IMG/VR virus record: IMGVR_UViG_3300025316_001101 | From: a virus | Lineage: Duplodnaviria > Caudoviricetes | Direction: 5' to 3' (one strand) | DNA length: 64,000 nucleotides | Part shown: positions 30,930-51,461 of the stretch, piece after piece | How positions within the stretch are numbered: the first letter of the stretch is position 1 | Layout: every line of letters begins with the position of its first letter | The notes under the pieces: model-generated | Told to the model about the DNA's origin: nothing | Databases searched by the model: none | What the model saw: only the letters and a program-made list of their open reading frames with translations | Position numbers and translations under genes: made by a program

Positions 30930-31163
30930 TTATGAAAACATTCCTTTAATAAGATCGTAGAATACTACGGGCCACTGTAAAGAATACTTAGTAGCGAGCG
31001 GTATTGCCGCCCACTCTTTAGCAACTATCATCAACATGAAGAAACATGTAATGTATCCAACTCCATAAATGCCAGCTATCCAAGCCAAAATATATAACGT
31101 ACTATGCATAAGTGGTTTTTGTTCCGTCCCCATTGCTATGGGTTCGGCAAGCGTGGCCTCCAC
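30930..31163 (-). CDS. small membrane protein
   Basis: one hydrophobic helix. Confidence 0.5.
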   Translation of the reverse strand: MEATLAEPIAMGTEQKPLMHSTLYILAWIAGIYGVGYITCFFMLMIVAKEWAAIPLATKYSLQWPVVFYDLIKGMFS

Positions 31164-32163
31164 TGCCCATTGGAGGCTTGGGCCTCTGATGCTCTATATA
31201 CCCGTCCCAACATACATTTTTCTTCAACTCTTGTGCCGCCCTTTCCGCAGATGTCCTATCATAGAAGTATCCTATAATAGTATAACCACTCCACCAATGG
31301 CCGGTCACATGCGAATGAACATATTCAACTTCTGTGTCAAACGATGCTAAAACATTTTTGACTGCTCGCCTGGGAAACCACAATGGCTGAACCGTTACCG
31401 TCACCCAACTTAAATTCGATAACTCTAATCCATCCACATTCACATGCTGCTTATACATAAGCTCATTAGCACGTTCAACAGCCTGTGCCTTTCTCTCATT
31501 CTCATAGTCGTCCATAGTGACTATTTTGGAAGACACCCTCACATTTTCCAGTGGCGTGGGTTTGAGCGGAATATACGGAACATGTATGGGTGAAGCAGTC
31601 CACGGTCGTAAGTAATCTAAGGTGCCTGCCCTCTCATCAGTTTTAATCCTTAAAGCCATTTCCTCGACCGTTATCTTATTCGTATTGGCCCATTCACGCA
31701 TTTCCTCATCCGAAAAGGTGGTGGGCTTAGGCTGCCTAAGACCGCTTATGATATTTTCAATTTGATCATTTGAAAAAATATCTTTTTTAGATTGAGCAAC
31801 TGCTTGCATCCTTCGCAGCATCTCTTTATTACCAACCTTGCCAATCACTTCTGATAACTGTTTTCTTGCTGGCTCTTTACCAATTCCAGCAAGTTGCATC
31901 CAAACTTGTAAAGTTTGAGAATCAACCTCTGTAGTGACAGAAGGACGTGGCTCCGAATAATCCCTCATTCGAGTGACAGGCACAATGTAATCTTTTATAT
32001 CTGTATGATCCGCAGCGGCATACTCGGCTGCCAATCTAGCCCGATGCAATTTAACAGCCTCTTCTACATCTTGAGCATAGTCAGGATGTTTGGCCTTCAT
32101 AACACGGTCAAATATCTTTTCGGCTTCTGCGACTACTCTAAATGTTGCTTCGTTAGAGGCCAT
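31102..32163 (-). CDS. hypothetical protein
   Basis: long ORF, start moved to ATG 32163. Confidence 0.6.
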   Translation of the reverse strand: MASNEATFRVVAEAEKIFDRVMKAKHPDYAQDVEEAVKLHRARLAAEYAAADHTDIKDYIVPVTRMRDYSEPRPSVTTEVDSQTLQVWMQLAGIGKEPARKQLSEVIGKVGNKEMLRRMQAVAQSKKDIFSNDQIENIISGLRQPKPTTFSDEEMREWANTNKITVEEMALRIKTDERAGTLDYLRPWTASPIHVPYIPLKPTPLENVRVSSKIVTMDDYENERKAQAVERANELMYKQHVNVDGLELSNLSWVTVTVQPLWFPRRAVKNVLASFDTEVEYVHSHVTGHWWSGYTIIGYFYDRTSAERAAQELKKNVCWDGYIEHQRPKPPMGSGGHACRTHSNGDGTKTTYA

Positions 32164-32175
32164 AATTATTTCCAG

Positions 32176-32270
32176 TACGCCCAGTAGGAATTGCACCTAC
32201 GACCCTCGGTTTAGATTATGGGGCTGACTTGCCCCTAAGACCGATGCTCTATCTCCTGAGCTATGGGCGC
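32176..32270 (-). tRNA. tRNA-Arg(TCT)-like with 22-nt hairpin insertion in the anticodon loop
   Basis: Arg-type body; 29-nt loop CT[TAGGGGCAAGTCAGCCCCATAA]TCTAA. Confidence 0.7.
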
Positions 32271-32284
32271 ATTAATAAAACTCA

Positions 32285-32845
32285 TCAACTGATACGCAAT
32301 CTTTTATTCAATTTATCGATTAACCGGCATGTATAAACATCTACTTTAGATTTTATCGAATTGATATCCCACATGTTTTCATGCAATTCTATATGACATG
32401 TATGACAAAGCAAAATACATTTTTTTAATTCAGTGATAATTTCTGACCATTTTTTATAATGTATGTTTGTCATTTCAAACATTTTCGTTTCGCAATCTAT
32501 GTGATGAAAACACATCCCCTTATCACATCTATTGTAACCACACTTAATACACTTGCCACCTTTAATAGAAACACATTTTGCTTTCAAAGCGTATCTACGT
32601 CTTTTAGTATGACAAGAATTACATATCTTACTGGTTCCTCCGTGCCGCCTTTTATAGGTAAATTGCCTTCCGCAAATATCACATTCACAACCAAGTTCCT
32701 TGTGTGGAATTTCTAATTTTTTTGTATTATGCGTTTTGAATGGAGAACATTCAAAACAATATTTTCGTCTTTGCAGATTACGTTCTTTACCATCAATCTT
32801 CATCCTAAATGGAAATCGATCTCCACATTTTTTGCATATTGGCAT
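32285..32845 (-). CDS. HNH homing endonuclease
   Basis: C..CG..C..FHH..K...KC.LLC.TCH.E.H. Confidence 0.85.
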   Translation of the reverse strand: MPICKKCGDRFPFRMKIDGKERNLQRRKYCFECSPFKTHNTKKLEIPHKELGCECDICGRQFTYKRRHGGTSKICNSCHTKRRRYALKAKCVSIKGGKCIKCGYNRCDKGMCFHHIDCETKMFEMTNIHYKKWSEIITELKKCILLCHTCHIELHENMWDINSIKSKVDVYTCRLIDKLNKRLRIS

Positions 32846-32908
32846 ACAACTCCTTAGCGTAGATGTTAGTACATACTCTACATATGCATCTACGCTATAT
32901 TTTACTAA

Positions 32909-32982
32909 TAGGCTCGGCAGGACTCGGACCTGCGACCCCCAAATTATGAGTTTGACGCTCTAACCAACTGAGCTACGAGCCC
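32909..32982 (-). tRNA. tRNA-Ile2(CAT) (Met not excluded)
   Basis: GGGCTCG acceptor, loop CT-CAT-AA. Confidence 0.85.
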
Positions 32983-33038
32983 GTAACTTCTCACACCAGC
33001 ATACCAAAAAATTAATCTCAAGTCAACTCTTTTAGAAT

Positions 33039-48288: not shown

Positions 48289-48362
48289 TAGGTCACGTGG
48301 GAATCGAACCCACATTTACACTTTTAGAGAGTGTTGCTCTGAGCCAATTGAACTAGTGACCC
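48289..48362 (-). tRNA. amber suppressor tRNA (anticodon CTA)
   Basis: ACACT-CTCTAAA-AGTGT, intact D/T arms, G1.U72, A73. Confidence 0.88.
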
Positions 48363-48931: not shown

Positions 48932-49026
48932 TGGGCGGGGCAGGGCTCGAACCTGCGACATTCGGAGCGTAATCAAGCATACACCTGATCCGTTTTCCGA
49001 TGCTCTGCCAACTGAGCTACCCGCCC
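48932..49026 (-). tRNA. tRNA (probably Val, TAC) with 22-nt hairpin insertion in the anticodon loop
   Basis: perfect acceptor, D and T arms; 29-nt loop with GATCAGG-TGTATG-CTTGATT. Confidence 0.65.
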
Positions 49027-50212: not shown

Positions 50213-50340
50213 GTGAATTACCCCGCCCCTAAAGAGGGCGGGGCTTCCGTTCCAATCAGCAGCCCACTCAAAGCGGGTCTTATGCCAAGACAAACGGCTC
50301 TCCCTGTATTCCAACAGGGGTTTATACCTTCATGTGAATA
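50213..50340 (-). ncRNA. putative TnpB omega/reRNA scaffold
   Basis: structured 3' region from tnpB end to the TCAC boundary; 5' end unknown. Confidence 0.6.
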
Positions 50341-51461
50341 TTAGTTGCTGCGTTTTCATCCCTATCGTGATTAGTGAAGCAGTTCCAACAAGTCCAAGTC
50401 CTATCAGTAAGTTCCAAGTCCTTGTTCTGCCAACCACATACGGAGCATAATTGCGAACTTGGATACCATTTATCCACTTGTCGCAACTCACGACCATACC
50501 ACTCGGCTTTGTATTTTAACTTTTGGAAGAACGAGGAGAAGCAAGCATCGGCTTGCTTCCTGTGATACACCTTCTCCCTCCATCGCTCAATTTTACGAAC
50601 CTCTGGGTCTGCGTTCCTCAACATATCACTTACACAAAGAGTTTCAACGACAATGACTTGGTTCTCGTCAATTATTTTTCTACTTACTTTGTGTTGAAAA
50701 TCCTCACGAATGTTGTGAATGTGCTGCTCCAACTTGTTTAATTTAAGGTATGCTTTCGCTCTACCTTTGCTGTCTTTCTGTGTTCTATTCTTTGCTTTCG
50801 TCAAGAACTTCAATCTGTTTCTATATTTTGTTTTTGGTAGTGGGTTCTCATACTTTGTTCCATCGCTGCCCACTATTCCATGAACATTCATGTCCAATCC
50901 AATAGTCTTATCAGTAGTTGGAAGTGGAGTCATTACCTTGTTGGCTGTAATGCTCACGAAGTATTGTCCTGCTTTATTCTTGGAAATGGTGGCAAACTCA
51001 ATCTCGCCTTCAAGTGGTCGGTGGAGGATGATGGGGATGCCTTGCTTGAACTTAGGAATGCTCAACTTACCATCAATGACTTTGATATTCTGTAATACCT
51101 TGAATGATTGTTTGCCGTGTTTTTTCTTGAAACGAGGGAAGCCACATTTACCTTTATGTTTGCCTTGTGCTTTTAATTTAACCTTACGGAAGAAGTTGTC
51201 ATATCCATTTTGTAGTGCTTTGGCTGAGTATTGTAATGCTTGACTTCCTGCTTCCTTCAACCAGTCGTATGTTTTCTTTAACTCTGGGATAGATGTAGCA
51301 TTGTCATAGTAGTTCAATGATTTGTTCTCACCTTTATAAGCATTGATGCGTTGTTCAAGGAAATGGTTATACAAAAACCTCACACAACCAAAATGTTTGG
51401 CGAGTAGAACTTGTTGTTCCTCGGTGGGCATCAACCTATATTTGTAAGAAATTAAGGTCAT
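50322..51461 (-). CDS. tnpB: RNA-guided endonuclease TnpB
   Basis: YKYRLMPT..FG..RF.YN HTH, RuvC GLD / VVE / DRD, C4 Zn finger. Confidence 0.93.
   Translation of the reverse strand: MTLISYKYRLMPTEEQQVLLAKHFGCVRFLYNHFLEQRINAYKGENKSLNYYDNATSIPELKKTYDWLKEAGSQALQYSAKALQNGYDNFFRKVKLKAQGKHKGKCGFPRFKKKHGKQSFKVLQNIKVIDGKLSIPKFKQGIPIILHRPLEGEIEFATISKNKAGQYFVSITANKVMTPLPTTDKTIGLDMNVHGIVGSDGTKYENPLPKTKYRNRLKFLTKAKNRTQKDSKGRAKAYLKLNKLEQHIHNIREDFQHKVSRKIIDENQVIVVETLCVSDMLRNADPEVRKIERWREKVYHRKQADACFSSFFQKLKYKAEWYGRELRQVDKWYPSSQLCSVCGWQNKDLELTDRTWTCWNCFTNHDRDENAATNIHMKV

What the first reader, a model, noticed from the sequence alone, without database searches (positions are those of the whole stretch)
32176..32270. 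tRNA-Arg-like gene with a 22-nt hairpin in the anticodon loop
Seen: removing 22 nt after U33 (or U34) gives CT-TCT-AA in an argU-like body. The insert folds GGGGC-AAGTCA-GCCCC. It is too small for a self-splicing intron, and I could not build a canonical bulge-helix-bulge. Inference: a protein-spliced mini-intron, or an unspliced nuclease-resistant decoy.
Basis: partly seen in the sequence, partly recalled or inferred. Interest (0 to 1): 0.7.

Follow-up and report, generated by a model that had tools for sequence, protein, structure and literature searches.

The report
Hairpin mini-intron in phage tRNA-Arg
A giant freshwater phage carries an arginine tRNA gene split inside its anticodon by a 22-base hairpin; diverged relatives keep an insert of the same size, shape and place, one relative lacks it exactly, and no known splicing route explains it, so phages probably cut and rejoin some tRNAs in an undescribed way.

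Summary
On the minus strand, window 32176-32270 is a 95-nt tRNA (Rfam 53.8 bits) with a 29-nt anticodon loop, which is 7 nt plus a 22-nt insert folding into a 5-bp stem with a hexaloop.

New evidence:
- A syntenic relative (L076) has the same tRNA-Arg(UCU) with exactly those 22 nt missing.
- Two more diverged syntenic relatives (L201, L202/L203) have a 22-nt hairpin insert at the same place. Their stem sequences differ and the stem changes are compensatory.
- L201 fixes the junction at U34/C35. An unspliced or 33/34 reading would give ACU there, not UCU.
- In the same genome, tRNA-Leu(UAA) and an initiator-type tRNA carry inserts on the same template. The cuts lie 6 nt before and 9-10 nt after the hexaloop, although the position in the anticodon loop differs.

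I found no bulge-helix-bulge, no ribozyme match, and no RtcB, EndA or Tpt1 gene. An Rnl2-family RNA ligase and two P-loop kinases are encoded.

Best reading (about 0.55): a conserved intron recognised through its hairpin, cut out by an unidentified nuclease and resealed. Splicing itself is not shown, because no RNA data exist.

This scan had already flagged this stretch, sister inserts in this genome, and similar mini-introns in other phages. The closest literature is the "enigmatic" tRNA introns of Lak megaphages.

The parts
32176..32270 (-). Whole tRNA-Arg(UCU) gene with insert (95 nt). G1.U72 wobble, discriminator A, no CCA encoded.
   Evidence: ARAGORN; Rfam RF00005 53.8 bits; fold.
32237..32270 (-). 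Exon 1: tRNA positions 1-34 (acceptor 5' strand, D arm, anticodon stem 5' strand, C32 U33 U34).
   Evidence: Direct reading. Junction fixed by alignment with L076 and L201.
32215..32236 (-). 22-nt insert (putative intron) between U34 and C35. Layout: A, 5-bp stem GGGGC/GCCCC (32231-32235 with 32220-32224), hexaloop AAGTCA (32225-32230), bulged A, U, AAU. Taken alone, the window also allows 32216-32237 (junction 33/34), because a T flanks both ends.
   Evidence: L201 allows only 34/35.
32176..32214 (-). Exon 2: C35 U36 A37 A38, anticodon stem 3' strand, variable loop, T arm with the unusual T loop TGCAATT (G55), acceptor 3' strand, A73.
32285..32845 (-). HNH endonuclease gene (186 aa, zinc ribbons plus HNH) immediately upstream of the tRNA. 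It is a free-standing homing-type nuclease and is not conserved next to the intron in the relatives.
   Evidence: phrog_2255 E 1.1e-28; translation; absent upstream of the tRNA in L202.
31102..32163 (-). Downstream gene (353 aa, P0001, unknown function). It served as the synteny anchor to find the orthologous tRNA loci.
48932..49026 (-). Second tRNA of the window with a 29-nt anticodon loop (ARAGORN: Val(tac), 22-nt intron). Its hairpin has a different geometry, so its membership of the same insert class is doubtful.
   Evidence: Rfam 56.8 bits.

Best explanation
The 22 nt are a genuine, selectively maintained tRNA intron of a hairpin class specific to large phages.

The gene is transcribed as a 95-nt pre-tRNA-Arg. 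An endonuclease, phage or host and not identified, recognises the intron's own hairpin: a 5-bp stem, a hexaloop ending in CA, and a short helix extension in which the last one or two exon-1 bases pair with the intron's 3' tail. It cuts 6 nt upstream and 9-10 nt downstream of the loop, that is between U34 and C35 and after the 22nd nt.

The two halves, held together by the tRNA body, are then resealed in the anticodon loop, most simply by the phage's Rnl2-family ATP-dependent RNA ligase. This gives tRNA-Arg(UCU) for AGA, the phage's commonest Arg codon.

Shown:
- the gene, the insert and its fold;
- an intron-less ortholog and two diverged intron-bearing orthologs;
- a shared template with two other tRNAs of the same genome;
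- absence of BHB, ribozyme, RtcB, EndA and Tpt1 signatures;
- presence of an RNA ligase and P-loop kinases.

Inferred: transcription, excision, the identity and end chemistry of the nuclease, and the ligase's role.
For: 1. Precise presence/absence. L076 is syntenic (neighbour protein 49% identical, the same tRNA-Val(CAC) downstream). It has the same tRNA-Arg with the same G1.U72, discriminator and CTGGA trailer, minus exactly 22 nt.

2. Conservation with covariation.
- L201 and L202/L203 are more distant syntenic relatives (neighbour protein 39% and 34% identical over its C-terminal part). They have 95- and 94-nt tRNA-Arg genes with 29-nt loops.
- Between the window and L201, hairpin pair 1 is G:C against C:G and pair 5 is C:G against U:G. 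In alignment A5, 29 of 29 pairs are paired in every row and 10 show compensatory changes.
- L202 has an unrelated stem sequence but the same length.

3. Exons are under selection. Across the four orthologs 83 of 84 stem cells pair, and 11 of 21 pairs show two or more pair types. In L077 the same locus holds only a decayed remnant, which shows what a dead copy looks like there.

4. Only excision at 34/35 gives UCU in all orthologs. The unspliced or 33/34 reading gives ACU in L201.

5. Same template in tRNA-Leu(UAA) (junction 32/33) and the initiator-type tRNA (junction 34/35, anticodon split) of this genome. The layout is 1 nt, a 5-bp stem, a hexaloop NNNNCA, the stem, then a tail; the cuts fall at -6 and +10 or +9 from the loop.

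6. Such hairpins are not enriched elsewhere in the genome: 39 found against 32-48 in shuffles.

7. AGA is 30% of Arg codons.

8. An Rnl2-family ligase is present (PF09414, 90 bits), as are two AAA_33 kinases and a metallophosphoesterase.

9. The region has contig depth in two lake metagenomes from other studies (X2, X3), and no 22-nt deletion appears among the listed differences.
Against: - No RNA evidence of any kind, so neither transcription nor splicing is shown.
- No candidate endonuclease was identified. The 259-kb record is rated about 50% complete, so absences are weak in both directions.
- The genome has a second, intron-less tRNA-Arg(UCU) (genome 142986-143060), so this copy need not be functional for AGA decoding.
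- The ligase is a common jumbo-phage RNA-repair gene (PMC7824862) and is not linked to the intron-bearing tRNAs.
- The window's tRNA also has an abnormal elbow (A18, G55).
- The cut positions are inferred from DNA comparisons only. They are ambiguous by 1 nt in the window and in L202.
- The fourth insert (Val-like, 48932-49026) does not fit the template.
Confidence: 0.55

Rival explanations
1. The RNA is made but never spliced. The tRNA-shaped molecule with an extra hairpin arm has a non-decoding role, for example as a decoy or sponge for host anticodon nucleases or tRNA-binding defence proteins, a regulator, or a partner of the phage's RNA-repair proteins (Ro60/Rsr, ligase).
For: The genome encodes a Ro60/Rsr ortholog with a tRNA-like RNA next to it, so tRNA mimics with non-decoding roles do exist here. 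A second intron-less tRNA-Arg(UCU) could cover decoding. The window copy has an altered elbow, A18/G55. Conservation of hairpin and body would also be expected for a structured functional RNA.
Against: The exon sequences flanking the insert always reconstitute a canonical 7-nt loop with U33 and the anticodon that fits the body (Arg, Leu class II, initiator). A decoy has no need for that. The L076 ortholog is an ordinary tRNA at the same locus. The exposed triplet differs between orthologs if unspliced, UCU against ACU. An insert that splits the anticodon would destroy the determinant that most anticodon nucleases read (general knowledge).
Confidence: 0.2
2. The two cuts are made by housekeeping tRNA-processing or duplex-specific RNases rather than a dedicated splicing nuclease, for example RNase P (host, or the phage's own truncated RNase P-like RNA) at the 5' side of the hairpin and another metal-dependent RNase at the 3' side. 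These leave 3'-OH and 5'-P ends that the Rnl2-type ligase seals directly. This is a mechanistic sub-variant of the intron reading.
For: The 5' cut lies immediately 5' of the first paired base of the hairpin in the window, L201 and Leu, which is the geometry of an RNase P site. A full-length but sub-threshold match to the truncated RNase P model RF02357 (37 bits, E 2e-5) lies 2.3 kb upstream of the intron-bearing tRNA-Leu. I found no RtcB, 2H phosphoesterase, HAD-type PNK phosphatase or Tpt1, which favours 5'-P/3'-OH chemistry.
Against: The hairpin is only 6-7 bp long, has no T-loop-like loop and no CCA-like 3' tail, so it is a poor RNase P or RNase Z substrate by known rules (general knowledge). 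No phage RNase III was found. The stagger of the two cuts is 3 nt in Leu, the window and L201 and 2 nt in the initiator tRNA, not the fixed 2 nt of RNase III.
Confidence: 0.15
3. This is a disabled gene: a neutral or slightly harmful DNA insertion (replication slippage, or a small palindromic mobile element of REP/PATE type) in a redundant tRNA gene, with no RNA-level removal.
For: A redundant intron-less Arg(UCU) gene exists. The locus is labile: it is a decayed remnant in L077, and the region is replaced in strain X5. An HNH homing endonuclease sits next to it.
Against: The insert persists with the same length and fold in lineages whose flanking protein is only 34-39% identical, while its sequence has turned over with compensatory changes. 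All exon helices stay intact. There is no target-site duplication, and there are no further copies of the hairpin elsewhere in the genome.
Confidence: 0.07
4. A self-cleaving or self-splicing RNA: the insert together with the tRNA body forms a minimal ribozyme.
For: None beyond the conserved hexaloop ending (CA) and the purine-rich tail.
Against: 22 nt is far below any known self-splicing or self-cleaving core. Rfam finds no ribozyme or intron family here, even at E up to 1. Only about 5 positions are conserved across the family.
Confidence: 0.03

Closest known systems
'Enigmatic' introns in tRNA genes of Lak megaphages (Devoto et al. 2019, Nat Microbiol, PMC6784885; read)
   Same: Phage tRNA genes are interrupted in the anticodon region by inserts that match no self-splicing class. 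Relatives differ by presence or absence, and alignment with insert-free alleles defines the junction. The mechanism is unknown.
   Different: Those inserts were found in gut Prevotella megaphages with TAG recoding, and at least one is tRNA-shaped. Here the insert is a 22-nt simple hairpin with a fixed template shared by Arg, Leu and initiator tRNAs. The junction is inside the anticodon (34/35). The evidence includes covariation across diverged orthologs. I did not see their sequences (Table S6), so homology is untested.
Archaeal/eukaryal protein-spliced tRNA introns (bulge-helix-bulge, EndA/TSEN, then RtcB or Trl1)
   Same: A short intron in the anticodon loop. It is apparently recognised by structure rather than by position in the tRNA: the junction is 32/33 in Leu and 34/35 in Arg and the initiator. 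The end of exon 1 pairs with the intron tail, rather like the anticodon-intron helix.
   Different: There is no 3-4-3 bulge-helix-bulge and the site is not 37/38. No EndA, RtcB or Tpt1 was found in the record. The host is bacterial by gene content (bacterial-type RF1, sigma-70, HNH, TnpB).
Phage T4 anticodon-loop break-and-repair (host PrrC cut, T4 Pnkp healing, Rnl1 sealing)
   Same: It is the only established case in the bacterial/phage world in which a tRNA anticodon loop is cut and rejoined by proteins. This phage also encodes an ATP-dependent RNA ligase and P-loop kinases.
   Different: T4 repairs a single host-inflicted nick and no sequence is removed. Here two cuts would excise 22 nt as part of normal maturation. 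The ligase here is Rnl2-family, not Rnl1.
Bacterial group I introns in tRNA genes (tRNA-Leu(UAA), tRNA-fMet and tRNA-Arg(CCU) of cyanobacteria and proteobacteria)
   Same: They sit in the anticodon loops of bacterial-type tRNAs, including Leu(UAA), initiator and Arg. They are sporadic among relatives, and homing endonucleases are often nearby.
   Different: Group I introns are about 200-300 nt or longer with a P1-P9 catalytic core. This insert is 22 nt and has no Rfam intron match.

Membership tests
tRNA (Rfam RF00005) | Cloverleaf that scores above the family's gathering threshold | tested here: met
   53.8 bits against 29. All 21 stem pairs form.
tRNA-Arg(UCU) isoacceptor | Anticodon UCU in a 7-nt loop with U33 after removal of the insert, and a body homologous to intron-less tRNA-Arg(UCU) genes | tested here: met
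   The loop becomes CTTCTAA. 67 of 74 tRNAs sharing the flanks are Arg(UCU). The ortholog L076 is called tRNA-Arg(tct).
BHB (archaeal/eukaryal) tRNA intron | Two 3-nt bulges separated by a 4-bp helix and carrying the two splice sites | tested here: not met
   An exhaustive scan of both arrangements gave a best score of 7 of 8, no better than shuffles, and never at junctions that restore a 7-nt loop.
BHB (archaeal/eukaryal) tRNA intron | Splicing endonuclease (EndA/Sen) and RtcB- or Trl1/Tpt1-type ligation enzymes available | tested here: not met
   PF01974, PF01139 and PF01885 have no match in the 259-kb record, and the controls rang. The record is about 50% complete and the host is unknown, so this absence is weak.
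Group I / group II self-splicing intron | Catalytic core of conserved helices (at least about 200 nt) | tested here: not met
   The insert is 22 nt, and Rfam finds no intron family even at E up to 1.
Small self-cleaving ribozymes (hammerhead, twister, pistol, hatchet and others) | Match to the family covariance model | tested here: not met
   No such match in window 32100-32350 at E up to 1.
Phage hairpin mini-intron class proposed here | 21-22-nt insert in the anticodon loop, laid out as 1 nt, a 4-5-bp stem, a hexaloop ending in CA, the stem and a 4-5-nt purine-rich tail. Excision 6 nt before and 9-10 nt after the loop restores a canonical loop. | tested here: met
   Found in the window Arg, L201 Arg, Leu(UAA) and the initiator tRNA. 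L202 Arg fits if cut at 33/34. The alignment is manual, because MAFFT shifts the 21-nt member by one column.
Phage hairpin mini-intron class proposed here | Removal at the RNA level | not testable with these tools
   No run listed as holding the stretch is on record as RNA.
REP/PATE-like mobile palindromic DNA element | Many near-identical copies dispersed in the genome, typically intergenic | tested here: not met
   Hairpins with NAGNCA loops number 39 genome-wide against 32-48 in shuffles. The copies inside tRNAs share the loop and tail but not the stem sequence.

The most novel reading that the evidence does not exclude
Large bacteriophages have a dedicated tRNA-splicing pathway that does not use the bulge-helix-bulge motif. 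An as yet unknown nuclease reads a minimal hairpin (5-bp stem, hexaloop ending in CA) and measures fixed distances from it. It excises 21-22-nt introns from several tRNAs (Arg, Leu, initiator), and a phage RNA ligase reseals them. That would be a third, independent solution to tRNA splicing besides self-splicing and the archaeal/eukaryal BHB system. It might be used to make maturation of key tRNAs depend on a phage factor, or to break the target sites of homing endonucleases or anticodon nucleases.
Probability: 0.4. Interest if true: 0.85.

Novelty: new variant of a known kind. Interest (0 to 1): 0.72.

Why it matters
In bacteria and their viruses, only self-splicing group I introns are known to interrupt tRNA genes. 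Protein-dependent tRNA splicing is regarded as a trait of archaea and eukaryotes.

A 22-nt hairpin is kept at the same place, with compensatory changes, in phage lineages whose flanking protein is only 34-49% identical. It is precisely absent from one lineage. Together these imply an RNA-level removal mechanism that has not been described.

The family now has a defined template and several natural variants. That makes the question directly testable, by tRNA-seq on lake samples or by in-vitro cleavage and ligation of a 95-nt transcript. It also gives a search model for finding the responsible nuclease by phylogenetic profiling. Finally, it explains why standard tRNA finders miscall these genes: here ARAGORN read Leu(tag) without its intron option.

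Tried and rejected
- **RNA evidence:** no RNA holder was listed by the look-up of sequencing runs, so expression and splicing could not be examined.
- **Read laying:**
  - The contigs of X2 and X3 give depth over the locus, and no 22-nt deletion appears among the rows shown, but many rows were not shown.
  - Strain X5 has a joint that skips 31636-32987, with the letters between not known, so it gave no allele for comparison.
  - The 'letters between' rows come from unrelated tRNAs mapped chimerically.
- **IMG/VR scans**, all of which found no relative:
  - the exon pattern with a variable gap;
  - the neighbour protein;
  - PTH2;
  - the Val-like exons;
  - the L201 exons;
  - a degenerate Arg pattern with a 15-45-nt gap.
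  - A loop-plus-tail pattern gave only random hits with no tRNA context.
- **The phage collection** (blastn) has no related genome.
- **Contigs without DNA:** the ENA contig of ERZ1426824 is syntenic but has no DNA on file. I first read its shorter called spacer as a sign of an intron-less allele, then corrected this. The homologous start codon lies 33 nt inside the call, which makes the spacer 121 nt, the same as in the window. The contig that carries P0009 also has no DNA.
- **'Collaborative homing' idea** (the HNH gene beside the intron protects its own target): rejected as a general explanation. The Leu, initiator and Val-like tRNAs have no nuclease neighbour, and L202 has the intron without the HNH.
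- **Operon partners of the RNA ligase as candidate nucleases:** one is AcrVA2-like and the other has no match. The ligase has no PDB relative by sequence.
- **RNase III, Rnl1, 2H phosphoesterase, CCA-adding enzyme and HAD-type PNK phosphatase:** no match. The Rnl1 control rang nowhere, so that search is uninformative.
- **IRE-like, boxB-like and coat-protein-operator-like readings of the hairpin:** considered from memory and dropped, because the loops do not fit.
- **Val-like tRNA (48932-49026):** I tried to fit it to the template. Only cuts at 31/32 or 32/33 give U33 (loop ATTACGC), and its hairpin lies on the other side (11 nt before and 5 after the loop). I therefore do not count it as a member.

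Full report
**1. What is there**

The window is the reverse strand of positions 195025-259024 of a 259,024-bp virus record. The record has 41% G+C and is rated about 50% complete. The runs that hold it are freshwater lake and sediment metagenomes. The record carries about 50 tRNA genes. Standard code 11 gives 91% coding coverage.

The finding lies on the minus strand, 32270 to 32176.
- Rfam's tRNA model scores it at 53.8 bits, with the anticodon loop as the only anomaly.
- Without its intron option, ARAGORN miscalls it Leu(tag). With the option it reads Arg(tct) with a 22-nt intron.
- Read directly, the stem TCGGT/ACCGA encloses 29 nt: CTT, A, GGGGC, AAGTCA, GCCCC, A, T, AAT, CTAA.
- The fold of the whole molecule keeps the cloverleaf and adds the hairpin. 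The hairpin is extended by U33:A, U34:A and A:U pairs around a bulged A (z -3.9).

**2. The body is tRNA-Arg(UCU)**

A metagenome scan for the two flanks with a free gap returned 74 intron-less tRNAs. Of these, 67 have the loop CTTCTAA and 7 have CTCATAA. AGA is the phage's most used Arg codon, at 30%.

**3. Orthologs with and without the insert**

The gene downstream of the tRNA (P0001, 353 aa) has very few relatives, and they served as synteny anchors.

- **L076** (neighbour protein 49% identical) has a 74-nt tRNA-Arg(tct) in front of the homologous gene and the same tRNA-Val(CAC) behind it. Its acceptor stem shows the unusual G1.U72, and its discriminator and CTGGA trailer are as in the window. 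The alignment differs by one gap of exactly 22 nt. All 21 stem pairs form in both genes, and the four stem differences are all compensatory.
- **L201** (39% identity over the C-terminal part) has a 95-nt tRNA (Rfam 59.6 bits) with a 29-nt loop: CTT, A, CGGGT, CATCCA, GCCCG, A, T, AAA, CTAA. This is the window's template. About 15 of 22 intron positions are identical. Stem pair 1 is inverted (G:C to C:G) and pair 5 is changed to U:G (29 of 29 pairs formed in every row, 10 compensatory, 0 of 500 shuffles as good).
- **L202 and L203** come from two independent assemblies (34% identity, and the same NUDIX ... PTH2 synteny). They have a 94-nt tRNA-Arg (52.5 bits), again with G1.U72 and a 29-nt loop whose hairpin has an unrelated sequence (TGATGT / TTTACA / GCATCA).
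- **L077** (44%) keeps only a decayed T-arm remnant.

Across the four intact orthologs, 83 of 84 stem cells pair, and 11 of 21 pairs show two or more pair types.

L076 is the closest to the window, both by the flanking protein and by the tRNA's 5' half (26 of 31 identical, against 21 of 31). The simplest history is therefore an old intron that was lost precisely in the L076 lineage. This is an inference from four taxa without a rooted tree.

**4. Where the junction is**

In L201 only excision between positions 34 and 35 gives UCU; excision at 33/34 gives ACU. This settles the window's ambiguity in favour of 32215-32236.

It also argues against a tRNA that works unspliced with an extra arm. The triplet left exposed 3' of the hairpin would be UCU in the window but ACU in L201.

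**5. A family within the same genome**

ARAGORN with introns and Rfam find three more tRNAs with 21-22-nt inserts in the anticodon loop.

- **tRNA-Leu(UAA)** (genome 5204-5311) reads C | A, AGCGA, CAGTCA, TCGCT, A, T, GAA | TTAAAA.
- **The initiator-type tRNA** (genome 139350-139442) reads CTC | T, TGGCT, CAGACA, AGCCC, T, AGA | ATAA.

Lined up by hand on the hairpin, all of these have 6 nt from the 5' cut to the hexaloop and 10 nt (9 in the initiator) from the loop to the 3' cut. This holds for the window Arg, L201 Arg, Leu and the initiator, and for L202 if it is cut at 33/34. They also share:
- a loop ending in CA;
- a pyrimidine before and A or U after the 5' cut;
- a purine-rich tail.

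The position in the anticodon loop differs, 32/33 in Leu and 34/35 in Arg and the initiator. The constant feature is therefore the hairpin, not the tRNA. I infer that whatever cuts reads the intron.

Hairpins of this kind are not enriched elsewhere in the genome.

The fourth case, the Val-like tRNA at window 48932-49026, also has a 29-nt loop. Its hairpin sits on the other side and the only acceptable loop is ATTACGC, so I leave it out of the class.

**6. What it is not**

- **No bulge-helix-bulge.** A scan of both possible arrangements over all four arms does no better than shuffled sequence, and never at junctions that restore a 7-nt loop.
- **No ribozyme or intron family** in Rfam, even at E up to 1.
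- **No target-site duplication.**
- **Not a terminator.** No U run follows the hairpin (direct reading).

**7. Enzymes**

No match in the record:
- RtcB, Tpt1 and EndA;
- RNase III;
- 2H phosphoesterase;
- HAD-type PNK phosphatase.

Present in the record:
- an Rnl2-family RNA ligase (genome 185966-186679);
- two stand-alone AAA_33 kinases;
- a calcineurin-like phosphoesterase and a macro-domain protein;
- a Ro60/Rsr ortholog;
- a full-length but sub-threshold match to the truncated RNase P model, upstream of the intron-bearing tRNA-Leu.

This toolkit is typical of jumbo-phage RNA repair (PMC7824862), and nothing links it specifically to the introns. Because the cyclic-phosphate enzymes are missing, cuts that leave 3'-OH and 5'-P ends and direct sealing by the ligase are the more economical guess. 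This is inference only.

The HNH endonuclease directly upstream of the tRNA is not conserved with the intron. I read it as an ordinary homing-type gene in a tRNA cluster.

**8. Comparison with what is known**

My literature searches found no description of hairpin-type mini-introns in phage tRNAs and no mechanism for them. The closest report is the 'enigmatic' tRNA introns of Lak megaphages.

Earlier notes of this scan had already flagged this stretch, the Leu and initiator inserts of this genome, and mini-introns of 23-49 nt in other phages. I used them as leads. I re-derived the Leu and initiator inserts and the ligase myself. I did not check the claim that a sister strain lacks the initiator's 21 nt.

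**9. Verdict**

The best-supported reading is a conserved intron, recognised through its hairpin and removed by proteins or by housekeeping RNases, then religated. Splicing itself is unproven.

Within the known kinds, this is a new structural variant of the poorly understood phage tRNA introns. If the pathway is confirmed, it would be a new route of tRNA splicing.

Noticed in passing
L084:7091-8800 (+) and genome 128960-129089; also genome 161889-162016: The phage encodes a Ro60/Rsr ortholog (vWA_Ro60 E 1.7e-17, plus TROVE). A 130-nt tRNA-like RNA lies 160 nt downstream of it. That RNA shares the motifs GTTTCAGCG and AGTTGGAACTACATC with the 'tRNA-Asn with a 56-nt insert' at 161889-162016. These look like Y-RNA-like (YrlA-type) partners of Rsr rather than intron-bearing tRNAs.
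   Followed up: partly
window 48932-49026 (-): A second tRNA has a 29-nt anticodon loop (Rfam 56.8 bits). Its anticodon arm continues into a 10-bp irregular helix. The only 22-nt excision that gives U33 yields the loop ATTACGC (Val UAC). Its geometry differs from the Arg, Leu and initiator template.
   Followed up: partly
window 32176-32270 (-), T loop and D loop; also genome 5204-5311 and 202933-203004: The window's tRNA-Arg has A18 and G55, where its three orthologs have G18 and U55. That is a paired change at the elbow contact. G55 also occurs in the intron-bearing Leu and in Pro(GGG), and C55 occurs in three other tRNAs of the genome.
   Followed up: partly
whole genome, 3' flanks of the tRNA genes: Nearly all of the roughly 50 tRNA genes are followed by C-T directly after the discriminator base. 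CCA is not encoded, and no CCA-adding enzyme was found in the record.
   Followed up: no
L078:2728-2932 (+): A full-length but sub-threshold match to Rfam RNaseP-T (the truncated RNase P that lacks the specificity domain): 37 bits, E 2e-5. It lies 2.3 kb upstream of the intron-bearing tRNA-Leu(UAA).
   Followed up: partly
window 48289-48362 (-) and genome 183724-183797: Two tRNAs have the anticodon CUA (amber suppressors, labelled Pyl by ARAGORN). Even so, TAG ends 47 of 222 long ORFs, and code 11 gives 91% coding coverage.
   Followed up: partly
window 50322-51461 (-): A 379-aa transposase (phrog_506, E 1.6e-104). By its size it is probably TnpB-like. It sits inside the tRNA region.
   Followed up: no
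L087:4020-4943 (+): An AcrVA2-like (anti-CRISPR) protein, by atlas features (0.97) and structure (TM 0.60). It lies in the gene row that ends with the RNA ligase.
   Followed up: no
G1.U72 in window 32270/32177, L076, L201, L202 and genome 142986-143060: All tRNA-Arg(UCU) genes of this phage group, with or without the intron, keep a G1.U72 wobble at the top of the acceptor stem.
   Followed up: partly
window 31637-32986: In run X5, a strain about 95% alike, a contig joins 31636 to 32987. That strain therefore has other sequence in place of the tRNA-Arg, the HNH gene and the tRNA-Met.
   Followed up: no
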